Source: an uncultured Candidatus Saccharibacteria bacterium (GTDB lineage: Bacteria > Patescibacteriota > Minisyncoccia > Phycocordibacterales > UBA9973). Taken from it: a DNA stretch of 39,593 bases. Under the pieces are notes generated by a model. The model had not been told where the DNA came from, made no database searches, and saw only the letters and a list, made by a program, of their open reading frames with translations. The stretch lies in assembly GCA_964613545.1 (NCBI GenBank), contig CAZTHH010000001.1, forward strand, positions 1 through 39,593, in the 5' to 3' direction. The number at the start of each line of letters is the position of its first letter. Position 1 is the first letter of the stretch. Below, piece by piece: positions 29,177 through 39,593 of the stretch. Position numbers and translations under genes: made by a program.

Positions 29177-30055
29177 ATGGAAAATTCATATTTACCAAGC
29201 TCACAATTCATAAAGCGAGTCATCGTTATTTTCTCTGTAATAGGAGCAGTCATTCTTATTACAAAAATCTCTCCGAATATAAAAAATAAACTCATTACCA
29301 CCGGTACTATAAATAGTGTCATGGTAAAAGATGTAGTTACTCAAGATAGCAACAAAAATGGGATTCAAGACTGGGAAGAGTCATTATGGGGGCTTGATCC
29401 TACAAAAGACGGGGATGCAAATAAAGAATTCATCGAAGCAAAGAAAAGGAAAGCTGGTATTAGTTCTAAAAATGCCCAAATAACAGATTCAACCGACCAA
29501 ATTTCACGTGAACTATTTGTGATTGCGTCTTCTCTAAAACAAAATGGTGCAGGGAAGGAAAGCTTAGACGTACTCGCTCAGACAATCGGTGGGGAAGTTA
29601 CTCCACTTACTTTTAATGATGTCTATCACATGAATGACATACAGATAGTCGCAACAACGAAAAAAAATATGACAGTATATCAAGAAAACCTCATCCGTCT
29701 TGGTAAAAAATATACATTACTTGGTATTGGCTCAGAACTCGACATCCTCGCCACCGCGCTTGATCGAAATGACAGCACAATGCTTGAAGGACTACCCCAG
29801 ATAAAAGCAGCATATCAAAACTTTGCAAAAGACCTAAAAAAAATTCCCGTTCCACTTGACCTAGGACCAAACCACATAACAATTATGAACGGATTGGACC
29901 ATACAGGAGTATCACTCGACACGATGGCTAAAATGATTGAAGACCCATTAACAGGTCTTTCAGGAATGCTCACGTATCGTATCTATAATGATCAATTTGT
30001 TGATGGAATAAATACGGTGAATAAATATTTATATAGTGATATAATAAAACGATAG
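29177..30055 (+). CDS. Hypothetical N-terminally anchored membrane protein (292 aa), first gene of the envelope cluster
   Basis: TM helix VIVIFSVIGAVILITKI, with the rest predicted to be extracytoplasmic. TATACT (29164-29169) lies 7 nt before the ATG. Confidence 0.6.
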   Translation: MENSYLPSSQFIKRVIVIFSVIGAVILITKISPNIKNKLITTGTINSVMVKDVVTQDSNKNGIQDWEESLWGLDPTKDGDANKEFIEAKKRKAGISSKNAQITDSTDQISRELFVIASSLKQNGAGKESLDVLAQTIGGEVTPLTFNDVYHMNDIQIVATTKKNMTVYQENLIRLGKKYTLLGIGSELDILATALDRNDSTMLEGLPQIKAAYQNFAKDLKKIPVPLDLGPNHITIMNGLDHTGVSLDTMAKMIEDPLTGLSGMLTYRIYNDQFVDGINTVNKYLYSDIIKR

Positions 30056-30056
30056 T

Positions 30057-33000
30057 ATGAACTTGTTTACCTACATGCAAAAAAAGACCCTCGCAGGAAT
30101 TCTCGTTTTTGCTATTTTTATTTCTCCAATAGTTCCAGTTTCATATAGCTACGCAGAAATTAAAGATCCAAACTATATATATACAGGAGGCATGCTGGGT
30201 GATTCTGCAAGTGGTACTACTGCGGACGATATCCTTAATGATCAAACGGGGGGGCTTGCATCGAACGCAGATCCGCTCGACACTGATACAACTGGTGGTA
30301 ATACAAATAAAATTGCATTATCTGTTTTTGGCTGCGGAAATGGCCCAAAGCGTTTTATTAAATCAATACAAGACCTTTCTTCGCTTTATGAGGCACAAAA
30401 GGTACTCAAAAGTGAAGGTTTAGCTGGAGGCCTTTCTCCGCTTACAAATGTTCTCGGCACAACAGCAAAAACTGCAGTAGAAATAAAAGCATTAGCAAAA
30501 GATATTAAAGATGCAAAATTAATTGCTGGTGCATCTACACTTGCAGCGCAACAAACAGCTGATAAAGAAACTCAAAAAAGTCTTGTTCTTATTAATTCAA
30601 AAATAGACAAACAGCTTGCTGCTGCCGAAGAACAAAAAGTATGGGAGCAGTGTTTAAACGGAATCGCCTACAAAGTCACCAAACACCAAATTGCAAACAT
30701 GACCCAAAAGACTATCAATTGGGTCAATTCTGGTTTTGCAGGAGATCCACTATTTATTAAAGACCAGAAAACATTTTTCAAAAATATTGAGACAAAAACA
30801 ATGCGTTCAATCCTTGGACCTATTTCTGCATACAATAACACTACCGTCTATCCATATGGCCAAGACTTAGCACGCAGTATGATAAACGGCTTTAAGACAA
30901 CCTTTGAAGAAAGAGCGAAATCGACACTCCAACAATCATTACCTTCAGGCAGTAGCCCAGATGATTTTACTAATGATTTTACTCAAGGAGGATGGTCAGC
31001 ATGGGAATCATTTACTTTAAATCCACAAAACAATCCACTTGGATTTCAAATGATTACGACTCAGCACATTGCAGACGAAGCGGCAAAAGATGTACAAGCT
31101 CAAAAGGATGAACTCACTCAAAAAGATTTTATTGGGCAAAAGAAGTGCGTGGAATGGGAAGCAGACGCAACGAAAGAAGATAAAAATCATCCATTTACAC
31201 TTAATTCAACAAAATTGAATGACCCAGATGCACAAGATAAATGTATCCGATATGAAACAATCACTCCGGGAGGGGTGACAGAGGCACTTATCAATGCACA
31301 AATTACATCACCAATAAGACAGCTTGAAATTGCAAATACAATAAATGAATCCCTTGATTCAGTATTTACTGCGCTCATTAGCCAACTTTCAACAAAAGGA
31401 TTTTCAAGTCTTAGTTCATTTAGTACACAAAACAACGAAATTACCGCAGACTATACACCAAAACGATACTATAATAGTTATGGATATCTGATCCAGGTCA
31501 GCAAAACGCATGGGGGATGGTATAACAAAGGGGGTAAATTTGATATTACTCGAGACTTAGATGATATCTATACTAATGATGCAACAGGCAAGAAAACATT
31601 AGTGAAAAAAGGTATTATCACTACACAAAAAGACTATCTTGAAGCAGCAACAGCAGCAATGAAAGGACTCGGACCGATACTCCCTGCAATTGGGAAACTT
31701 GATTATTGTATTCCGGGACCAAACCCAGGATGGGAACAACGAACTGATGAAAAAATTGCAGAATTGGTAGATTACATGCAGAATCAAAGTTTCAATGGTA
31801 CTAAAAAAAGTATGCTTCCAAAGTGGGTCTCTGGAAACACATTTGGGACATTTACAGGAATTGGTGCAGCGGCAGGTACTGTTATTCCAGGAGTAGGAAA
31901 TGCAGTGGGAGCACTTGTCGGACTCGCGATTGACGTCGGGCTATCTGTTTACGATAAAGTGCAAAAGAATAAAAATGAAAACAATAAAGTTGAACTTGAA
32001 GCACAATACGCCAAAGCAGAAGCAAACTTCTATGCAAATCAAAACGCACAGATTGCAAACTTTAGCTCACAATTCCAAAGTTATAGTGACTATGTTCACA
32101 AGAAATACGACACGATCGTTGAACCTAAACTTCCTGATGGAAGTAATAATCCACAATATTTACCAATGGCACAAGCCGGTCTTGATATTGTAAAAAATCT
32201 TGATCGCTATGATGCAAACGTAAAACAAGCATATCAAGATTATGATGAGGTAATTGGTCAAACAAAAACAAATATTCGTAAACTAGAAGCGATTAAAAAA
32301 CGTGTAGATGAAATCGTAAAAGGTGCACGTAAGCGTTGGGCAAAAGAAATTACTGACAAATTAAGTGCTCCTGGGCAAAAAATTGATTGGAGTTGTTTTG
32401 ATACATCTCTCGGACAAGGAGGTGATGGTTCTAACGATCTCGCCGATGGGGCAAACGGGACACGAACACAAGAGGGAACTGCGCTTGGTGCAGATTTTGA
32501 TACACCGCAACAAGACACCCAAGCACCAGTAGGAAAATGTACCACAGAAGTTACCGCAACAGGAATTTCTGTAAACGGAGATGCACCATTTAAATACTCT
32601 TGGTCACTCAAGACGGGCCAAGATGTAGTAACACTCTCAGCGGGGGAATACAAGGTAGATAATAATCAACTCTTCTCTGCAAAGGTAGATGCGTACAAAG
32701 ATTCTGGGCTTGCAAAACTTACACTCACTGTTGAAGACGGTAATGGTGATAAAGCAACCAAAACAAAAGACATAACAATCGCACATAAAGACGTAGATGC
32801 GCGAGGAGTAACCTGTCCAAAACCACCAGAAGCACCAGGAACACCATATGACATTACCGCAAATATTGTAAGCGATACTACAGCAGATCTGTCATGGTCA
32901 GCTCCTACAAACACAGGAACTTCTCCAATTACTGACTACACAATAGAATATGCACCGTATGCATCATTTGTATGGACTAAGTTTGCACACACGGCAAGCA

Positions 33001-33479
33001 GTACAACAAAAAGAACAGTTACCGGATTAGATAATAAAAATAAAACATATAAATTTAGAATTGCTGCGGTTAATGCCGTTGGATCAAGTGCAACAAGCCA
33101 ACCAGTAACACCGAAAGTTACTTATAACCCACAATTTGATGTCACCGCAGCCGAAGACACTGATTTTGTAAAACAATTAGCTGGAATGTGTATGGTAAAC
33201 ATTACTATCACAAACAAGAATTCAGCAAACGCATCAACATACAATTGGACACTATCGACAGAATTTGGAAATCAATATGTATCAGTAAATCCAGTCAAAG
33301 GAACTGGTGCGACAAACCAACCACCAAATCCAGCATTTAGTATTGATGCACATAAATCATACGGTAAAACAAAAATCAATCTAACACGCGACAACATTAA
33401 TGGAACAAAAGATACTGCAGTAAAAGAAATTACCATTACCAAAATGAACACAAATCAAAGTGGAAATACGTGTCAGTAA
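30057..33479 (+). CDS. Giant secreted protein (1140 aa) with one fibronectin type III domain
   Basis: Signal peptide ...FISPIVPVSYSYAEIK. Gly-rich hydrophobic segment GIGAAAGTVIPGVGNAVGALVGLAIDVGL. FN3-like block (about nt 32826-33116): DLSWSAPTNTGTSPITDYTIEY...YKFRIAAVNAVGSS. Starts 1 nt after the previous stop codon. Confidence 0.8.
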   Translation: MNLFTYMQKKTLAGILVFAIFISPIVPVSYSYAEIKDPNYIYTGGMLGDSASGTTADDILNDQTGGLASNADPLDTDTTGGNTNKIALSVFGCGNGPKRFIKSIQDLSSLYEAQKVLKSEGLAGGLSPLTNVLGTTAKTAVEIKALAKDIKDAKLIAGASTLAAQQTADKETQKSLVLINSKIDKQLAAAEEQKVWEQCLNGIAYKVTKHQIANMTQKTINWVNSGFAGDPLFIKDQKTFFKNIETKTMRSILGPISAYNNTTVYPYGQDLARSMINGFKTTFEERAKSTLQQSLPSGSSPDDFTNDFTQGGWSAWESFTLNPQNNPLGFQMITTQHIADEAAKDVQAQKDELTQKDFIGQKKCVEWEADATKEDKNHPFTLNSTKLNDPDAQDKCIRYETITPGGVTEALINAQITSPIRQLEIANTINESLDSVFTALISQLSTKGFSSLSSFSTQNNEITADYTPKRYYNSYGYLIQVSKTHGGWYNKGGKFDITRDLDDIYTNDATGKKTLVKKGIITTQKDYLEAATAAMKGLGPILPAIGKLDYCIPGPNPGWEQRTDEKIAELVDYMQNQSFNGTKKSMLPKWVSGNTFGTFTGIGAAAGTVIPGVGNAVGALVGLAIDVGLSVYDKVQKNKNENNKVELEAQYAKAEANFYANQNAQIANFSSQFQSYSDYVHKKYDTIVEPKLPDGSNNPQYLPMAQAGLDIVKNLDRYDANVKQAYQDYDEVIGQTKTNIRKLEAIKKRVDEIVKGARKRWAKEITDKLSAPGQKIDWSCFDTSLGQGGDGSNDLADGANGTRTQEGTALGADFDTPQQDTQAPVGKCTTEVTATGISVNGDAPFKYSWSLKTGQDVVTLSAGEYKVDNNQLFSAKVDAYKDSGLAKLTLTVEDGNGDKATKTKDITIAHKDVDARGVTCPKPPEAPGTPYDITANIVSDTTADLSWSAPTNTGTSPITDYTIEYAPYASFVWTKFAHTASSTTKRTVTGLDNKNKTYKFRIAAVNAVGSSATSQPVTPKVTYNPQFDVTAAEDTDFVKQLAGMCMVNITITNKNSANASTYNWTLSTEFGNQYVSVNPVKGTGATNQPPNPAFSIDAHKSYGKTKINLTRDNINGTKDTAVKEITITKMNTNQSGNTCQ

Positions 33480-33497: not shown

Positions 33498-36400
33498 ATG
33501 GAACAAAACCCTAAAAGAACAAAAGCACTCATTATCACCTTCATCGTAGCACTTGGACTACTTATGGGAGTGTATTATCTATTCTTTAGTGGCAATGCTC
33601 CATTTAGCACAAAATCAGGAGGTACGGCTAAATCATTTTTTCCATTTCTTGGGACAAGTAAGAACAAAGATTTAAATACCATACAAAATGGTGAAAGTGG
33701 TCCAGTACTTACTGGAGGAGAGACAACAACAGATACTAGTGGTACAGGTATGCTAGCTGGGGGACAAAGTAATGGTACTAGCGGAGGTACGAGCACAAAT
33801 GATCAAATTACAGGAGGGGACACTACCACGACAGACGGAACAAGTACGGGGCAAGGAACAAATACTGGAGGAATAACTACACCGCTAACTCAATGTGCCG
33901 ATGGTATCGATAATGATGGAAATGGAGTACTCGATGCTGATGATGCTTCATGTCACACAGATAATAATATTGCAGATACGTATACACCAGAAAAAACATT
34001 AGAATTTACAATTCCAACCAAAAACTTTCCAATACCAACAAGCACATTTATTCCACAGTGTAGTGACAAAAAAGACAACGATGGTGATGGAAAAATTGAT
34101 ACACAAGATCCAGGATGTCATACAGACAATGACATAGCTAAGCCATATGATAAAAATAGAGTCACAGAATTTAGTCTCGATTCCACAAAAGGAAAAATTG
34201 ATGCTTGTGTAGTAAGTAGCGGAACAATACCAAGCACTGGAGGGACTATCCCAGTTCCAACAGGGCCAATTGTTATTCCACAGTGTAGTGACGGAATTGA
34301 TAATAACAATGACGGGCCATTTGATATTCAAGATCCAGGATGTCACTCAGACCTGAATCCAAATAATGGGCTATCATACAACCCTCAAAAAGTGCTTGAA
34401 ATGATAACAGCTCCTAGTATTCCACAGTGTAGTGATGGACTTGATAATGACGGAAATGGTTTACGGGATGCTCAAGACCCAACATGTTTTATCGTACCAG
34501 CTGACCCAAAATCATATAATCCCATGCTCTCACCAGAAGGTAAGGGATTTTCAAATGGTGTACCAGTTCCAGTCCCAGCAACAACTACTGGAACAACAAC
34601 GACCACAGGATCTGGAACTACCACAACAGGAGGTGTCTTTGGCCCAGCGACAACCACCACAGGAGGTACTGGCACATCAGGAACAACAAATGGGGGGAGT
34701 ACTGCGGGAAGCACCGTAGGTGGCGGAGCTGTGGGTGGTACAGTAGGAGGAGGCGCCGGAGGAGCAATTATCACACAGTGCTCCGATGGGCTGGATAATG
34801 ACCTAGATGGGAAAGCTGATGCGCTTGACCCAGGCTGCCACAGCGACAAAAATCCTCAGAACAACGGGCAAAACGGAACACCTAATACATATGACCCAAA
34901 AATAAACCTAGAAATCATCGCAAAAAAAGAACAGAAAAGTCTTTTTGCTGGACTATGGCAATCACTCAAAGAAAACACCGCAGGGAACAAAGTGCTTTCA
35001 AAAATAGTACTTGCTGTAAATACACCAACAGCGACACTTCAAGTAGCAGGGTCACCAGCAGGAACACTAACTGGGGTGCCAACACTTGCTACTCCACTTA
35101 GCACAACTACCGGCAGTACGGTCATCACGTCAACAGCCGTAAACAGTGGTGTACCAATACAAACCCTAAGCGGTATCCAAACACTTCCACTCACTATGTT
35201 TGGTATCTACCCTGGGCAACAGCTTCCACTAACCCCAGATCAACTCAGTGCATACCTTGATTCTTTGGGTGCCAACAAACAGGTTGTCGATAGTAATGGA
35301 ATAATTTGTCCTGACACAAAAAATAATCCAGTAATCACACAATGTAGTGATGGCAAGGATAACGATGGCGATAAAAAAATCGACGCGCAAGATCCAGGAT
35401 GTCACTTTGATTTAAACGCTCGTAATACTAAATCTTATACCCCTACAAAAAATGATGAAAAAGAAGTACTACCGCAGTGTTCAGATAAACTTGATAATGA
35501 TAAAGATGGAAAATTTGATAGTGCTGATCCTGATTGTCACTATGACTTTAATCCACTAAACCCAGGTTCATTCTTAAAAACAAAAAACAGCGAAGCAAGT
35601 ATCACGAACGGAAATGGAAGTGGTAATGGGGGAGCGCTTGGATACATACCTCAATGCCGTGACGGACTTGATAACGATGGCGATGGACTTTCTGATAAAC
35701 TTGATCCAGGATGTCACCTTGACCTCAATGCAAAAAACGCATCTTCCTATATTGGAGACAAAACATCAGAACTTGATTTTATTCCAGCGTGTATTGATGG
35801 GAAAGATAACGATGGCGATGGACTTTCTGATGCTAATGATCCGGGGTGTCACTGGGACTTAAACGCAGCACGAGTAGAGTTATGCAGTGATGGAAAAGAT
35901 AATGACGGAGACAAACTTGCAGACAAAAACGACCCAGCATGTCATACGGACGGAAATGCAAGTAATATTCTTTCATATGACAAAGACCTTGGGGTGGATA
36001 CATATACTCCATACAAATACAGCGAATTTAATCTCGTACCACAATGCCGTGATTTCGATGCAAATGGTAAAGCCCGTGACAATGATGGGGATGGACTCGC
36101 AAATGATCTTGACCCAGGCTGTCACACAGACTTAAATGCATCACATAATGGAAAAAAAGGCGCAATAAATACCTATGACCCAGAAAAGACGCTCGAGCTT
36201 AACTACGTTCCACAATGCAGTGATGGAAAAGATAATGATAAAGATGGACTCCTTGATGACAAGGACCCAGGCTGTTATATAAACAAAAATGTAGCTGTCG
36301 CAAAGGATTATAATCCAGAGGATAGTAATGAAATGGAGTTTGACTGGAACGGCAACAAGGGAACAGCAACAAAAACTACCGCACCAAATTGCCCAGACAC

Positions 36401-37544
36401 AAACATCACGCTCAAATTCACAAAAGAAGAACAAGATGAGCTCAATCAACTCATTAAAGAATTCTATGCGCTTTCACCAAATCTAAAGAATAGCGTTGAT
36501 GTCGCAAGTGAACAAGACAAAAAAATCCAGTACGATAAGCTTACTGCTGTATCTAATGCTCTTACTGAACAATGCGTGCAAGATAAAGCAATTGCTTCAT
36601 ACAAAGGACCGAAAGAAACAATGCGAAATCCATACTTTACCACTGACCCAAACTACTATTATCTTTCACAAGATGCTTCATACGACATGAAAGATGCATC
36701 ATTCGTATCACAAATTGCAGCAAACTTCTATCGTTTTACAAAAAAAGTCTACGATGTAAATGACACAGATCAAACTGACAAGGTAGTAGGTACTGATACT
36801 GATTACTGGAATCACCAGCGCGCATTTAGTTATCACCCAGATGAACCTTCTGGTGTAGACAATAGTCCTGGATGGCTCGGTAAGTGGGATGAAAAGATCA
36901 AAATTTACGAAACTAGTTACCCAGGAAGCGTGTACCCAGCACTCGCAAAGAAAAACCACTACCTCGCCGCTAACGTAGGGTATGCCCTCGACAAAGTATT
37001 AGGATTACGTGACACAAATGAAGACTGTTTAGATGCAAGTACTGGATACTTTGCTAAAAATGATAAAGATGTTTGTTACAACAGACCAGCGTACGGGCTC
37101 TACGACATAAAAAATATTGTAGACAAAGCATGGAGAGAAGGACGTAAACTCAAAGATAGTGAAATTCTAAGAGCGACAGCTGCACCAAACTGGAACCAAA
37201 TAATAAAAGGGGATTACGAAATACGATCTATTCAAGAAACATTAGATATTTATATAAATCCTCCTTATGGTGACGTTAAAGGTAAATACTTCTGTAATTT
37301 CGGCTCTGATACAACAAAAGATATTTTGGCAAATATTAGCCCAGACAATCACAGTCAAATTGTCTGCCCACTATTTAAAAGCTTAAGGGGTAATCTAGAT
37401 CTCTTAAAGACAACAGATATTCATGAGCTCAAACGCACTATTGATGATTATGCACTCCGCCTAAAATCAGGAGACCCAGCACTCTTCTACTGGAAGAATG
37501 CAATGCCTGACCAAAGCTTTGAAGCACAATTCCAAATCTGGTAA
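33498..37544 (+). CDS. Giant surface protein (1348 aa) with 12 Cys-bracketed Asp-rich (Ca-binding-like) modules
   Basis: N-terminal TM anchor ALIITFIVALGLLMGVYYLFF. Thr/Gly-rich low-complexity linkers (about nt 34575-34765). Twelve CxDGxDNDGDGxxDxxDPxCH repeats. Roughly 420-aa non-repetitive C-terminal domain. Confidence 0.85.
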   Translation: MEQNPKRTKALIITFIVALGLLMGVYYLFFSGNAPFSTKSGGTAKSFFPFLGTSKNKDLNTIQNGESGPVLTGGETTTDTSGTGMLAGGQSNGTSGGTSTNDQITGGDTTTTDGTSTGQGTNTGGITTPLTQCADGIDNDGNGVLDADDASCHTDNNIADTYTPEKTLEFTIPTKNFPIPTSTFIPQCSDKKDNDGDGKIDTQDPGCHTDNDIAKPYDKNRVTEFSLDSTKGKIDACVVSSGTIPSTGGTIPVPTGPIVIPQCSDGIDNNNDGPFDIQDPGCHSDLNPNNGLSYNPQKVLEMITAPSIPQCSDGLDNDGNGLRDAQDPTCFIVPADPKSYNPMLSPEGKGFSNGVPVPVPATTTGTTTTTGSGTTTTGGVFGPATTTTGGTGTSGTTNGGSTAGSTVGGGAVGGTVGGGAGGAIITQCSDGLDNDLDGKADALDPGCHSDKNPQNNGQNGTPNTYDPKINLEIIAKKEQKSLFAGLWQSLKENTAGNKVLSKIVLAVNTPTATLQVAGSPAGTLTGVPTLATPLSTTTGSTVITSTAVNSGVPIQTLSGIQTLPLTMFGIYPGQQLPLTPDQLSAYLDSLGANKQVVDSNGIICPDTKNNPVITQCSDGKDNDGDKKIDAQDPGCHFDLNARNTKSYTPTKNDEKEVLPQCSDKLDNDKDGKFDSADPDCHYDFNPLNPGSFLKTKNSEASITNGNGSGNGGALGYIPQCRDGLDNDGDGLSDKLDPGCHLDLNAKNASSYIGDKTSELDFIPACIDGKDNDGDGLSDANDPGCHWDLNAARVELCSDGKDNDGDKLADKNDPACHTDGNASNILSYDKDLGVDTYTPYKYSEFNLVPQCRDFDANGKARDNDGDGLANDLDPGCHTDLNASHNGKKGAINTYDPEKTLELNYVPQCSDGKDNDKDGLLDDKDPGCYINKNVAVAKDYNPEDSNEMEFDWNGNKGTATKTTAPNCPDTNITLKFTKEEQDELNQLIKEFYALSPNLKNSVDVASEQDKKIQYDKLTAVSNALTEQCVQDKAIASYKGPKETMRNPYFTTDPNYYYLSQDASYDMKDASFVSQIAANFYRFTKKVYDVNDTDQTDKVVGTDTDYWNHQRAFSYHPDEPSGVDNSPGWLGKWDEKIKIYETSYPGSVYPALAKKNHYLAANVGYALDKVLGLRDTNEDCLDASTGYFAKNDKDVCYNRPAYGLYDIKNIVDKAWREGRKLKDSEILRATAAPNWNQIIKGDYEIRSIQETLDIYINPPYGDVKGKYFCNFGSDTTKDILANISPDNHSQIVCPLFKSLRGNLDLLKTTDIHELKRTIDDYALRLKSGDPALFYWKNAMPDQSFEAQFQIW
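33891..36278 (+). repeat. Array of 12 in-frame coding repeats (about 22-aa Cys-DxDxDG-Cys module plus variable spacer)
   Basis: Repeated DNA words such as attccacagtgtagtga (three copies) and a 27-nt identical pair at 35670-35696 and 35805-35831. Confidence 0.85.
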
Positions 37545-37553
37545 TAGTGATAC

Positions 37554-37591
37554 AAAAAACACCCTATTAAAAATTTTAATAGGGTGTTTTT
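37554..37591 (+). terminator. Intrinsic terminator after the 1348-aa gene
   Basis: AAAAAACACCCTATTAAAA / TTTTAATAGGGTGTTTTT long stem followed by a T-run. Confidence 0.8.
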
Positions 37592-37656: not shown

Positions 37657-39593
37657 GTGAAAAAGATTTTCTCATCCATTTTCATACTTGTCATCACCGC
37701 GTCTCTCTTCGCGCCTTTTAGTGTAAACCTACAAGACAATAAAATAACACCGAGCATAGCTGAGGCAGGTACTAATTGTAAATTTGTCAGTACCGCATTC
37801 AGCCCAGCAGGACAACAGGCTAAAGGATGGAAAGCAGCAAAACCAAAACCTGGAGTGACCTTAACAATAGAAACTTCAGATTGTATTGGGGAAATTTTTA
37901 ATGGGTTTTTATACGAACATGATGGATGGAGTGCAAATGACAGTATACTTTCCATCTCAGATCATAAAATCACTCAAAATAAATTAGTTATTGACCTAAC
38001 ACCAGGAGAAGAAGGCTGTAATAATGGTGACTGCCAAATAATATATCGTTTATTTCTACAACACGGGGACAAATCCCCTGGTAACTTTGCAGTATATAAT
38101 TCAGGAGATGTATCCGGTGCAGCAGATGAACTCGACTATGATTGTGCCGACCCAACAAATTGCATACAAACAGATTCATGGATAGAAAACCAAGCAACTG
38201 GTGCTCAACAATTAAGACAAATAACTGCGAGTATTGTATCGGGGAAAGATACGCTAACAATATCCGGAGATGATCCTGATACAACAAGACTAACACTTTT
38301 AGGAACAACAGATACACTAACAATAGGAATTTACGACAGCTCAGATACCCTCCTTGCCCCAGGAACAGTTGGTGGAAAAAATCCTTTTGTATACAACATC
38401 GTAAATGATTTAGTAAAAAATGGGGGAGGAGTAAAATACAATACAATATTTAGTGGGCTACAACCAGCAACAACATACACCATTAAACTTAAACCTTCTT
38501 TTGCGAATACTGCTCTTATTAATCTAAACCAAGAACAAAATATTTCAGCAACAACACTGGATGCAAACGGGCAAGTGGTTAATCCAAATGGAACAGTTGA
38601 ACAAAACACTTTGGGTAAACAACAAAACCCTGATGGGTTACCTATATGTAGCTTAAATCCTTGGGCCACCAAAGGTACATTCACTGGCTGTTTACTTCAA
38701 GCATTTTATTATCTCGTATTTGAACCAACCTCTTGGCTTTTTGCAAAAGCAGGGCAATTCTTTGATAGCACCTTTGCATATTCTATTTCTGATACTTCGT
38801 ACCGTACGGGGTTCGTAGTCGGGGGATGGGGAATTGTACGTGATATCTGTAATGTGTTCTTTATTTTTGTGCTTCTCTATGTTGCCTTCTCTACCATCCT
38901 CAATATTCATGGATTTAAAACAAAAGAAATGATTATCAATGTAGTCCTCATTGGTATCCTGATAAACTTTAGTTTGTTTACGACACAAGTTATTATCGAT
39001 ACTTCAAATATACTAGCAAGAGTATTTTATAATTCAGAAAGTATCCGGCAAGAAAAAGAAAAACCAAATCAGCAATCAGGAGATACGAAAAGCCAATTAA
39101 ATGAAATTTCGCTCTCTGCAGGATTAGTAGGGAAAATTGACCCCCAAAAAATCCTTGCTGCACAAAGCTCTGTTTCCACAAATGCAATTGGTGAAGACGC
39201 AGATAACACAACATGGTTCATTACTATTCTGATGTCGAGTATTTTAAACGTCGTCGGATTTATTACTTTCCTCACCGTTGGTCTGTTATTTATCGCTCGA
39301 GTAATTGGGTTATGGATTGCTATGGTTGTCGTGCCTTTTGCATTCTTTTCATACACAGTACCGGCAATGCAGGGAATGGATACATTAGGCTGGAAGAAGT
39401 GGTGGCCGGAAACCTTAAAGATGGCATTTATGGCACCAGTCTTTATGTTCTTTATTTATATTCTTCTCCGATTCGTTGAAAAAGGATTTAATATGGTAGC
39501 AGATTCTCAAGGTACAGGAGCGACTGGTAGTGGAATGCTCGCAGTGATTATCCCGTTCCTTTTCATTATGATTTTCCTTCTTAAGGCAAAAGA
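37657..39593 (+). CDS. Polytopic membrane protein with large N-terminal ectodomain, possibly VirB6/TrbL-like (3' end beyond window)
   Basis: Open reading frame from GTG 37657 to the window edge (645 codons, no stop), translated by hand and absent from the supplied track. Signal peptide VKKIFSSIFILVITASLFAPF, a roughly 340-aa Cys-containing domain, then at least 6 hydrophobic helices (e.g. ICNVFFIFVLLYVAFSTIL, ILNVVGFITFLTVGLLFIARVIGLWIAMVVVPFAFF). The CDS call is solid; the family assignment is weak. Confidence 0.8.
   Translation, partial: MKKIFSSIFILVITASLFAPFSVNLQDNKITPSIAEAGTNCKFVSTAFSPAGQQAKGWKAAKPKPGVTLTIETSDCIGEIFNGFLYEHDGWSANDSILSISDHKITQNKLVIDLTPGEEGCNNGDCQIIYRLFLQHGDKSPGNFAVYNSGDVSGAADELDYDCADPTNCIQTDSWIENQATGAQQLRQITASIVSGKDTLTISGDDPDTTRLTLLGTTDTLTIGIYDSSDTLLAPGTVGGKNPFVYNIVNDLVKNGGGVKYNTIFSGLQPATTYTIKLKPSFANTALINLNQEQNISATTLDANGQVVNPNGTVEQNTLGKQQNPDGLPICSLNPWATKGTFTGCLLQAFYYLVFEPTSWLFAKAGQFFDSTFAYSISDTSYRTGFVVGGWGIVRDICNVFFIFVLLYVAFSTILNIHGFKTKEMIINVVLIGILINFSLFTTQVIIDTSNILARVFYNSESIRQEKEKPNQQSGDTKSQLNEISLSAGLVGKIDPQKILAAQSSVSTNAIGEDADNTTWFITILMSSILNVVGFITFLTVGLLFIARVIGLWIAMVVVPFAFFSYTVPAMQGMDTLGWKKWWPETLKMAFMAPVFMFFIYILLRFVEKGFNMVADSQGTGATGSGMLAVIIPFLFIMIFLLKAK

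What the first reader, a model, noticed from the sequence alone, without database searches (positions are those of the whole stretch)
33891..36278. Twelve Cys-bracketed D-x-D-x-D-G modules (thrombospondin type-3 / MopE-like) in the 1348-aa protein
Seen: the motif C-x-D-x-x-D-N-D-x-D-x-x-x-D-x-x-D-P-x-C-[HFY] occurs 12 times, for example QCSDGKDNDGDKKIDAQDPGCH, QCRDGLDNDGDGLSDKLDPGCH and ACIDGKDNDGDGLSDANDPGCH. Spacers of very variable length follow; the shorter ones often contain SY/TY-x-P. Copy 11 carries an insertion (QCRDFDANGKARDNDGDG). Established: Asp-rich DxDxDG loops closed by a disulfide are Ca-binding units in thrombospondin type 3 repeats, and a related CxDGxDxDCDG motif is the putative metal-binding MopE repeat. 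Inference: the protein may be a Ca-stiffened stalk or adhesin displayed on the cell surface. That would fit an attachment role for an episymbiont.
Basis: partly seen in the sequence, partly recalled or inferred. Interest (0 to 1): 0.6.

Follow-up and report, generated by a model that had tools for sequence, protein, structure and literature searches.

The report
Teneurin-type calcium modules in T4SS-locus protein
The twelve Cys/Asp units are real copies of an already catalogued bacterial repeat, related to the calcium-binding "C-rich" domain of animal teneurins, and they form the variable-length stalk of a membrane-anchored surface protein encoded in a changeable slot of a type IV secretion locus in an ultra-small bacterium.

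Summary
ORF 33498-37544 (1348 aa) carries 12 units, C-x-D-G-x-D-N-D-G-D-G-x-x-D-x-x-D-P-G-C, at exactly the stated coordinates.

The repeat is not new. NCBIfam NF033662 ("acidic double-disulfide repeat") matches 12 stretches at 248 bits (cut-off 41). Pfam TSP_3 and MopE models do not match.

The only solved relatives are teneurin C-rich domains (PDB 7PLP), which bind three Ca2+. The window's units are a one-disulfide subtype. They keep the C838-C857 pair and 7 of 9 side-chain Ca ligands, and lose two Cys, E835 and D856.

Orthologs share an N-terminal membrane anchor, a helical Cys-paired C-terminal domain and a terminal [FY]E..LN[IV]W motif. They carry 0-23 units.

In 17 of 17 loci with enough flank the gene lies between a large secreted protein and a VirB6-like protein, upstream of TrsD/VirB4. 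In the nearest relatives this slot is empty or holds unrelated genes.

Best reading: a Ca-stiffened, length-tunable stalk on a fast-evolving surface protein linked to the type IV secretion locus.

This scan had already tied this repeat to NF033662 and teneurin in at least 25 other genomes, so the repeat itself is ordinary.

The parts
33498..37544 (+). Gene for the 1348-aa repeat protein (stop codon included)
   Evidence: ORF list. Orthologs P0002, P0003, P0004, P0012 and P0023 share both termini.
33519..33587 (+). N-terminal membrane anchor, aa ~8-30, preceded by K/R residues
   Evidence: It is the only hydrophobic segment in the protein (Kyte-Doolittle 19-residue maximum 2.43 at aa 11). The sequence ME.NPKK.KAFIITFI... 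is conserved across family representatives.
33588..33884 (+). Gly/Thr/Ser/Asn-rich low-complexity linker, aa 31-129
   Evidence: Composition T20 G18 S8.
33894..33956 (+). Unit 1 (CADGIDNDGNGVLDADDASCH)
34059..34121 (+). Unit 2
34284..34346 (+). Unit 3
34428..34490 (+). Unit 4
34551..34769 (+). Second Gly/Thr-rich low-complexity linker, aa ~352-424
   Evidence: Sequence shown.
34779..34841 (+). Unit 5
34842..35342 (+). Non-repeat insert, aa 449-615; its last ~50 residues are conserved in P0002, P0003 and P0004
   Evidence: BLASTP of aa 448-615 against the homolog set.
35343..35405 (+). Unit 6
   Evidence: modelled
35478..35540 (+). Unit 7
   Evidence: modelled
35655..35717 (+). Unit 8
35790..35852 (+). 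Unit 9 (short tail; the next unit starts 11 aa later)
35883..35945 (+). Unit 10
36045..36125 (+). Unit 11, with a 6-aa insertion between the first and second Asp positions
   Evidence: It is counted among the 12 stretches by hmmscan but missed by the genome scan.
36216..36278 (+). Unit 12
36387..36647 (+). CTD-a: Cys-bracketed helical hairpin (C965...C1026, then GPxxxxNPY). This is the most conserved part of the family.
   Evidence: Alignment A2/A5. The profile finds 310 cluster representatives, mostly through this part. AF2 predicts helices with pLDDT 53-74 here.
36648..37517 (+). CTD-b: variable C-terminal region with two further Cys pairs (1177/1193, 1266/1290)
   Evidence: Shared only with the closest orthologs P0002, P0003, P0004 and P0012. 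The AF2 model is poor.
37518..37541 (+). Terminal motif FEAQFQIW; family consensus [FY]E..LN[IV]W-COOH
   Evidence: E and the terminal W are invariant in A2. The motif is present in 101 of 150 family representatives.
37555..37591 (+). 17-bp-stem hairpin with flanking A/T tracts, 11 nt after the stop codon (terminator-like)
29177..30055 (+). Upstream 292-aa gene; the conserved first gene of the envelope block
   Evidence: Homologs lie in the same position in all loci tested.
30057..33479 (+). Upstream 1140-aa secreted protein with an Fn3 domain; a conserved neighbour
   Evidence: Pfam fn3, E 9e-13. Synteny.
37657..39593 (+). Downstream polytopic VirB6-like membrane protein, running off the window
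   Evidence: Conserved neighbour. Further downstream on the contig are a TrsD/TraC-like gene and a VirB4-like (CD1110 family) gene.

Best explanation
**Module.** Each unit is a one-disulfide variant of the NF033662 / teneurin C-rich calcium-binding module. A 20-residue Asp/Asn loop (C-x-D-G-x-D-N-D-G-D-G-x-x-D-x-x-D-P-G-C) is closed by the disulfide equivalent to teneurin-4 C838-C857.

The loop keeps the ligands D840, D843, N844, D845, D847, D851 and D854. It therefore most likely holds the two thrombospondin-type-3-like Ca2+ ions. The third site, which in teneurin involves E835 and D856, is probably lost (inference).

A tail, H-x-D-x-N...[ST]Y-x-P...E, is predicted to fold back on the loop. 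This gives a ~45-residue module.

**Protein.** Twelve modules and Gly/Thr-rich linkers lie between an N-terminal membrane anchor and a ~400-aa helical, disulfide-paired C-terminal head. With Ca2+ bound, the modules would act as stiff beads holding the head away from the membrane, beyond the wall. The number of modules (0-23 in orthologs) would set the reach.

**Locus.** The gene sits in a variable slot of a chromosomal, monoderm-type type IV secretion (T4SS) locus: ksgA, 292 aa, ~1000 aa Fn3 protein, [slot], VirB6-like, PrgI, TrsD, VirB4, wall hydrolase. The most likely role is a fast-evolving surface or host-contact accessory of that machine.

**Shown versus inferred.** Shown: repeat identity, homology to a solved Ca-binding domain, ligand and Cys conservation, protein architecture, synteny, and unit-number variation. 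Inferred: Ca binding, stiffening, and the contact or adhesion role.
For: - NF033662 matches 12 stretches, 248 bits, E 2e-75.
- A profile of the 2-Cys units hits only teneurin C-rich domains in the PDB (7plp_A, E 7e-4).
- A profile of the canonical 4-Cys bacterial units hits 7plp_A at E 4.9e-9 over its full length, with all four Cys aligned.
- The teneurin-4 C-rich crystal structure has three octahedral Ca2+ ions and disulfides 1-3, 2-5 and 4-6. Its Ca I and II sites are TSP type-3-like (PMC9058538).
- Ligand-equivalent positions not fixed by the search pattern are 77-100% Asp in 298 family units and 98-99% Asp in 899 other units. The E835 equivalent is hydrophobic. The D856 equivalent is mainly Gly in the window's own units and mixed (N, G, E, S) across the family.
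- AF2 on units 6-7 gives pLDDT 89.8. DSSP marks single bridge residues at H25, Y36, H70 and F81, read here as His-Tyr/Phe bridges. The top Foldseek PDB hit is 7plp_A, rmsd 1.4 A over 20 columns.
- The genome encodes VKOR and a DsbA-like thioredoxin, so it can form extracytoplasmic disulfides.
- There is a single N-terminal TM segment, and the repeat region has net charge -59.
- Orthologs share both termini and carry 4-23 units, or 0-22 among family representatives.
- Synteny with VirB6-like, TrsD and VirB4 holds in 17 of 17 loci with enough flank.
- TrsD and VirB4 are also identified downstream on the window's own contig.
- In the nearest relatives the slot is empty or differently filled.
Against: - No metal-binding experiment exists for any bacterial member.
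- Two of the nine teneurin side-chain ligands and two of the family's four Cys are missing from these units.
- Housekeeping genes (uvrD, ksgA) are equally syntenic, so conserved order alone does not prove a functional link to the T4SS.
- A strong terminator-like hairpin separates this gene from the VirB6-like gene.
- The family is missing from both same-family genomes and was found in only 2 of 401 sampled genomes of the phylum. It is therefore not a core T4SS part.
- The C-terminal head has no recognisable fold (pLDDT 48.7).
Confidence: 0.7

Rival explanations
1. The units are true thrombospondin type-3 or MopE-family repeats, and the protein is a generic Ca- or Cu-binding adhesin.
For: The core D-N-D-G-D-G-x-x-D-x-x-D equals the TSP type-3 Ca motif. 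PMC9058538 describes the teneurin Ca I and II sites as TSP3-like. PMC3278476 aligned the teneurin core with the PF11617 consensus. One unit gives a weak TSP3_bac hit of 13 bits.
Against: Pfam TSP_3 and Cu-binding_MopE do not match at E <= 10, either for the window protein or for canonical 4-Cys carriers. No thrombospondin or MopE chain appears in the PDB profile searches at E <= 10 and E <= 1. The Cys spacing follows teneurin/NF033662.
Confidence: 0.08
2. It is a Ca-binding envelope or S-layer-associated protein with no functional tie to the type IV secretion genes. On this view the shared gene order only reflects a conserved chromosomal block.
For: uvrD and ksgA are conserved in the same block. 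There is a terminator-like hairpin before the VirB6-like gene. The gene is dispensable in close relatives that keep the T4SS. The same module occurs in many unrelated surface proteins: 36 of 301 phylum genomes and at least 1343 carriers.
Against: The gene always lies inside the run of envelope genes, between the Fn3 protein and the VirB6-like protein. Its gaps to upstream neighbours are 1-18 nt. It keeps that position in 17 of 17 loci at only ~25-60% identity. Gram-positive-type T4SS loci typically carry repeat-rich surface proteins (own knowledge; PMC12102498 for the reliance on adhesins).
Confidence: 0.2
3. The modules bind a transition metal (Zn, Cu or Ni) through the conserved His after the second Cys, and serve metal capture rather than stiffening.
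For: His follows the second Cys in 81-84% of units of this family but in only 6% of units in other carriers. A MopE-like motif resemblance is noted in the literature (PMC3278476).
Against: Each unit has only one His and no Cys or His cluster. All other conserved ligands are hard oxygen donors, typical for Ca2+. AF2 marks the His and the tail Tyr/Phe as single bridge residues, which suggests a structural role.
Confidence: 0.05
4. It is a secreted substrate or effector of the T4SS rather than a fixed surface component.
For: It is encoded in a T4SS locus, is highly variable, and has a conserved extreme C-terminal motif that could act as a signal.
Against: It has a strongly conserved N-terminal signal-anchor typical of Sec-dependent membrane insertion. 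It is disulfide-rich and 1348 aa long. Its C terminus is acidic/aromatic, not the basic type used by known coupling proteins (own knowledge).
Confidence: 0.04

Closest known systems
NCBIfam NF033662, acid_disulf_rpt (acidic double-disulfide repeat)
   Same: The HMM matches all 12 units (248 bits in all). They share the C-x-D-G-x-D-N-D-x-D-G-x-x-D-x-x-D-P-x-C core. Carriers are exported proteins of Patescibacteria, DPANN archaea, Myxococcota and others.
   Different: The canonical unit has four Cys (C...DC.DP.C.....C), as seen in L012, L013 and L018. The window's units keep only the first and third Cys and match model positions ~6-27 of 32. Each unit alone scores 30-38 bits, below the 41-bit cut-off. 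They add an H-x-D-x-N...SY-x-P tail.
Teneurin C-rich domain (human teneurin-4 residues 834-871, PDB 7PLP; Meijer et al. 2022, PMC9058538)
   Same: It is the only solved relative found by profile search. The first Cys, seven acidic/Asn Ca ligands, the Pro and the closing Cys align residue for residue. It is also the top Foldseek hit for the AF2 model.
   Different: Teneurin has a single copy with six Cys (three disulfides) and three Ca2+ ions. Here there are 12 copies with one disulfide each. The E835 and D856 equivalents are lost, so probably two Ca2+ ions bind per unit. Teneurin uses the domain in a compact dimer interface, not as a tandem stalk.
Thrombospondin type-3 repeats (Pfam TSP_3 PF02412; TSP-1 structure 1UX6, as cited in PMC9058538)
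   Same: The D-x-D-x-D-G-x-x-D-x-x-D calcium motif and disulfide closure. Tandem Ca-dependent 'wire' architecture.
   Different: No HMM or PDB-profile match. The Cys spacing and flanks differ.
MopE-type motif (Pfam Cu-binding_MopE PF11617)
   Same: The short consensus C.DG.DN.CDG..D resembles the core, as Tucker 2012 noted for teneurins (PMC3278476).
   Different: No HMM match even at E <= 10. The Cys inside D-N-D-C-D-G is Gly here. There is no evidence for copper binding.
Repeat-rich surface proteins of Gram-positive conjugation systems (PrgB/PrgC of pCF10, TraO of pIP501; own knowledge)
   Same: Large, acidic, repeat-containing surface proteins encoded inside a monoderm-type T4SS locus, and variable between systems.
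   Different: No sequence similarity. This protein is anchored by an N-terminal TM helix rather than an LPXTG sortase signal. PMC12102498 reports that no PrgB-like adhesin was detected in Patescibacteria.

Membership tests
NCBIfam NF033662 acid_disulf_rpt | HMM score above the curated cut-off (41 bits) | tested here: met
   248.1 bits, E 2e-75, 12 stretches.
NCBIfam NF033662 acid_disulf_rpt | Four conserved Cys per unit (two disulfides) | tested here: not met
   All 12 units have two Cys. The position equivalent to the second Cys is A/K/T/S, and there is no fourth Cys. Canonical 4-Cys units are seen in L012, L013 and L018.
NCBIfam NF033662 acid_disulf_rpt | Acidic D/N ligand pattern D-x-x-D-N-D-x-D-x-x-x-D-x-x-D | tested here: met
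   D or N at every such position in all 12 units.
Teneurin C-rich domain (7PLP) | Significant sequence-profile similarity | tested here: met
   A1 profile against the PDB: 7plp_A, E 7e-4. A4 (4-Cys bacterial units): E 4.9e-9. Teneurins are the only family matched below E 0.05 in either search.
Teneurin C-rich domain (7PLP) | Six Cys forming 1-3, 2-5 and 4-6 disulfides | tested here: not met
   Only the 1-3 pair (C838/C857 equivalents) is present (PMC9058538).
Teneurin C-rich domain (7PLP) | Nine side-chain Ca ligands (E835, D840, D843, N844, D845, D847, D851, D854, D856) | tested here: inconclusive
   Seven of nine are conserved. The E835 equivalent is I/L/V and the D856 equivalent is mainly G.
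Teneurin C-rich domain (7PLP) | Same fold | tested here: inconclusive
Teneurin C-rich domain (7PLP) | Binds Ca2+ | not testable with these tools
   Needs ITC, DSF or crystallography.
Thrombospondin type-3 repeat (Pfam PF02412) | HMM match | tested here: not met
   No hit at E <= 1 for the whole protein, nor at E <= 10 for fragments.
Bacterial TSP3 repeat (Pfam PF18884) | HMM match above 25 bits | tested here: not met
   13 bits, E 0.093, profile positions 1-10 only.
Cu-binding_MopE (Pfam PF11617) | HMM match | tested here: not met
   No hit at E <= 10.
Patescibacteria MPF-FATA-like T4SS locus component | Encoded within the run of T4SS genes near virB4 | tested here: met
   TrsD-like and VirB4-like (CD1110) genes lie ~4.4-5 kb downstream of the stop codon on the same contig. 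The same order is found in 17 of 17 loci.
Patescibacteria MPF-FATA-like T4SS locus component | Homology to a named T4SS protein family | tested here: not met
   No Pfam hit above threshold, and NF033662 is the only NCBIfam hit.
Patescibacteria MPF-FATA-like T4SS locus component | Present wherever the locus is present (core part) | tested here: not met
   Absent from G284, replaced in G256, G337 and G143, and not seen at this position in G324. The CTD-a domain was found in 2 of 401 phylum genomes.
Sortase-anchored Gram-positive T4SS adhesins (PrgB/PrgC type) | C-terminal LPXTG sorting signal | tested here: not met
   The C terminus is ...FEAQFQIW. Anchoring is by an N-terminal TM helix.

The most novel reading that the evidence does not exclude
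The family is the missing host-contact element of the Paceibacteria type IV secretion system. It would be a membrane-anchored protein whose reach is tuned by adding or deleting Ca-stiffened teneurin-type modules (0-23). Its variable head, exchanged or replaced between close relatives, would determine which host cell the epibiont can engage. The conserved C-terminal [FY]E..LN[IV]W peptide would dock the head to a neighbouring locus protein.
Probability: 0.25. Interest if true: 0.6.

Novelty: new member of a known kind. Interest (0 to 1): 0.35.

Why it matters
The repeat itself is catalogued, and this scan has met it many times, so it adds little on its own.

What is useful is the context. Surveys of Patescibacteria type IV secretion systems report no adhesin (PMC12102498). 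This locus, however, has a variable slot. In one lineage the slot holds a membrane-anchored protein with a Ca-module stalk of very different lengths. That gives a concrete candidate for the surface or host-contact part of a machine known to be essential for epibiotic growth in other Patescibacteria.

It also gives a natural series of 0-23 modules for testing whether these modules act as calcium-dependent rigid spacers.

Tried and rejected
- **Pfam on the whole protein, on fragments and on 4-Cys carriers.** No TSP_3, MopE, dockerin or EF-hand family was found.
- **Word-based homolog search with the C-terminal domain.** It found only the query itself. This was misleading, because orthologs at 25-30% identity surfaced later through the repeat-region search and local BLAST/phmmer.
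- **AF2 of the C-terminal 419 aa with 12 sequences.** pLDDT was 48.7, so the model was not used for a fold search.
- **The search for related loci with the wider alignments A2 and A5.** A 4-sequence alignment worked.
- **PDB search with the VirB4 N-terminal fragment.** Nothing was found; NCBIfam identified it instead.
- **Literature search for the NCBIfam repeat name.** No papers.
- **A recent tandem expansion or slippage array.** Rejected, because the units are only 60-78% identical in DNA.
- **A core T4SS subunit.** Rejected, because the gene is absent from same-family genomes that keep the locus.
Full report
**1. The observation**

The + strand ORF 33498-37544 encodes 1348 aa. A pattern search finds 12 units whose paired Cys lie at aa 133/152, 188/207, 263/282, 311/330, 428/447, 616/635, 661/680, 720/739, 765/784, 796/815, 850/875 and 907/926. 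In DNA this is 33894-36278.

Unit 11 carries the reported insertion. Spacers between units range from 11 to 168 aa, and most units are followed by H-x-D-x-N and an [ST]Y-x-P-like element.

The units are 60-78% identical in DNA, mean 64%. They are old copies held by selection, not a recent expansion. Units 8 and 9 do share an identical 27-nt stretch (family D2).

**2. What the repeat is**

Pfam gives nothing relevant for the protein, for fragments of it, or for 4-Cys carriers from other genomes. TSP_3 and Cu-binding_MopE do not match even at E <= 10. One unit reaches 13 bits on TSP3_bac, whose cut-off is 25.

NCBIfam NF033662, "acidic double-disulfide repeat", matches 12 stretches with 248 bits, E 2e-75.

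In a sample of 301 genomes of the same phylum, 36 carry the repeat in diverse proteins. None of 14 control genomes does.

Canonical members have four Cys: C-x-D-G-x-D-N-D-x-D-G-x-x-D-C-x-D-P-x-C-x(4-8)-C. The window's units keep only the first and third Cys.

**3. Solved relative**

A profile of the 2-Cys units matches teneurin C-rich domains in the PDB, best 7plp_A at E 7e-4. The next hit, an unrelated lyase, has E 0.22. A profile of canonical 4-Cys bacterial units matches 7plp_A at E 4.9e-9 over its whole length, with all four Cys aligned. No thrombospondin or MopE chain appears in either search.

Meijer et al. 2022 (PMC9058538) report the following for the teneurin-4 C-rich domain:
- It binds three Ca2+ ions.
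- The ligands are E835, D840, D843, N844, D845, D847, D851, D854, D856 and three backbone carbonyls.
- The disulfides are C838-C857, C852-C863 and C858-C869.
- Sites I and II resemble thrombospondin type-3 repeats, and site III resembles an LDL-receptor A module.

Mapped onto the window's units:
- The retained Cys pair is C838-C857.
- Seven ligands (D840, D843, N844, D845, D847, D851, D854) are conserved. For positions not fixed by my search pattern, conservation is 77-100% in 298 units of the orthologous family and 98-99% in 899 units from other carriers.
- The E835 equivalent is I/L/V.
- The D856 equivalent is mainly Gly in the window's own units and mixed (N, G, E, S) across the family.

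I infer that the two TSP3-like sites are kept and the third is lost. The paper's text does not assign ligands to individual sites, so this step is inference.

Tucker et al. 2012 (PMC3278476) had already aligned the teneurin core with the MopE Pfam consensus.

**4. Structure prediction**

AF2 on units 6-7 (aa 612-703), with 28 tandem pairs as the alignment, gives pLDDT 89.8 and pTM 0.60. The model is almost all loop and 3-10 turns. DSSP marks single bridge residues at H25, Y36, H70 and F81, which I read as His-Tyr and His-Phe bridges. If so, the tail belongs to the module, which is then about 45 residues.

The genome encodes a VKOR and a DsbA-like thioredoxin, so exported Cys pairs can be oxidised.

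**5. The protein**
- One hydrophobic segment, aa ~8-30, follows K/R residues. No other segment reaches TM-like hydropathy.
- Next comes a Gly/Thr/Ser-rich linker, then the repeat region (net charge -59, 26 Cys), then a C-terminal region with three more Cys pairs.
- The total of 32 Cys is even.

The repeat-region search recovered at least 1343 carriers of the module within the 741-2359 aa length window. They are typically combined with DUF11, PKD, CARDB or PPC domains, and sources name Patescibacteria, Woesearchaeota/Nanoarchaeota and Myxococcota.

Among these carriers is a set of true orthologs (P0002, P0003, P0004, P0012, P0023, P0026, P0030, P0047, P0068, P0079, P0093). They share:
- the N-terminal ME.NPKK.KAFIITFI anchor;
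- a Cys-bracketed helical hairpin, here called CTD-a (L.FT..E...L..L.R.FYLIAP.LKT...QC...GNPWY);
- the extreme C terminus [FY]E..LN[IV]W.

Their unit counts are 4, 5, 5, 6, 7, 7, 7, 9, 12, 14, 23 and 23.

An exhaustive profile search with the C-terminal alignment finds 310 cluster representatives, mostly through CTD-a. Of the best 150, 59 have no unit at all and 91 have 1-22.

AF2 of the C-terminal 419 aa is poor (pLDDT 48.7, all-helical), so its fold stays unknown.

**6. Genomic context**

Housekeeping genes surround the region: pnp, comM-like, uvrD, ksgA, glmS and the CCA-adding enzyme.

The gene follows a 292-aa gene and a 1140-aa secreted Fn3 protein, with gaps of 1 and 18 nt. It precedes a polytopic VirB6-like protein.

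Further along the same contig lie a TrsD/TraC-like gene and a VirB4-like ATPase of the CD1110 family.

The order ksgA, 292 aa, ~800-1200 aa, [this family], VirB6-like, (PrgI), TraC-like, VirB4, ~320 aa, wall hydrolase recurs in:
- five metagenomic or genomic contigs carrying orthologs;
- the 13 species-representative loci with enough flank, whose record titles read Candidatus Nomurabacteria, Paceibacterota or, for several assemblies, Saccharibacteria.

One of the 13 carries the same protein and neighbour layout as one of the five contigs. That makes 17 distinct loci out of 17.

Quinonero-Coronel et al. 2025 (PMC12102498) describe this monoderm-type chromosomal T4SS. They note its proximity to ksgA and that no PrgB-like adhesin was detected in Patescibacteria.

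**7. Limits of the T4SS link**
- uvrD and ksgA are just as syntenic, so gene order alone is not proof of a functional link.
- A 17-bp-stem hairpin at 37555-37591 follows the stop codon. The gene may be transcribed separately from the VirB6-like gene.
- CTD-a was found in only 2 of 401 sampled genomes of the phylum.
- In the two same-family genomes the locus frame is intact, but the slot is empty (G284) or holds an unrelated 940-aa protein (G256).
- Three same-order genomes show other genes, and no homolog of this protein, between ksgA and the VirB6-like gene.

The gene therefore occupies a variable slot and is an accessory part, not a core one. That pattern, together with the changing module number, is what one expects of a surface-exposed, partner-facing component. 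This last step is inference.

**8. Verdict**

They belong to NF033662 / the teneurin C-rich family as a one-disulfide subtype, not to the TSP3 or MopE families.

The repeat is already catalogued, and earlier follow-ups in this scan reached the same assignment in at least 25 other genomes. I reached it independently first.

The added value here is the orthologous family, its 0-23 module series, and its place in a variable slot of the Paceibacteria T4SS locus.

Noticed in passing
window 37555-37591: A 17-bp-stem hairpin (AAAAACACCCTATTAAAAATTTTAATAGGGTGTTTTT) with an A-tract and a T-tract sits 11 nt after the stop codon of the repeat gene. It is a possible bidirectional terminator or attenuator between this gene and the VirB6-like gene.
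   Followed up: no
window 37518-37541, and family representatives: The extreme C terminus [FY]E..LN[IV]W-COOH is conserved in 101 of 150 family representatives, while the ~200 residues before it vary freely. It may be a docking or sorting peptide.
   Followed up: partly
L042-L046 (G284, G256, G337, G143, G324): The position between the Fn3-protein homolog and the VirB6-like gene is a variable slot. It is empty in one close relative and holds unrelated 940-aa, or 592- plus 485-aa, genes in others. The rest of the T4SS locus is conserved.
   Followed up: partly
L008 (own genome, contig C14, 2-1897, minus strand): A second carrier in this genome has a signal peptide, aromatic GW-type repeats, one Ca unit, a G/T/D low-complexity stretch, TM segments and a carboxypeptidase-regulatory-like region. 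L018, from another genome, has a related layout with seven 4-Cys units.
   Followed up: partly
L021:4960-6318 (same contig, beyond the window): A TrsD/TraC-like gene is directly followed by a VirB4-like (CD1110 family) gene that is cut by the contig end. A stretch of withheld N bases interrupts the end of the VirB6-like gene.
   Followed up: partly
window 35670-35696 and 35805-35831: Units 8 and 9 share an identical 27-nt stretch (GATAACGATGGCGATGGACTTTCTGAT), although the units are otherwise about 64% identical in DNA. This suggests local gene conversion or a more recent duplication.
   Followed up: partly
window protein aa 237 and 604 (DNA ~34206 and ~35307): Two extra Cys lie outside the units (IDAC and ICPDTK contexts). 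The IDAC context recurs in P0002 and P0004. They may form a long-range pair.
   Followed up: no
P0104 (2278 aa, JGI 'cysteine-rich repeat protein'): This bacterial protein combines the same units with NHL-type domains, including Pfam PF25021, which I recall to be the teneurin NHL family. It hints that module and teneurin-like body co-occur in bacteria.
   Followed up: no
G000:C33:173-532 and G000:C17:3877-4320: The 0.53-Mb genome keeps a VKOR and a DsbA-like thioredoxin, which form an extracytoplasmic disulfide-forming pair.
   Followed up: partly
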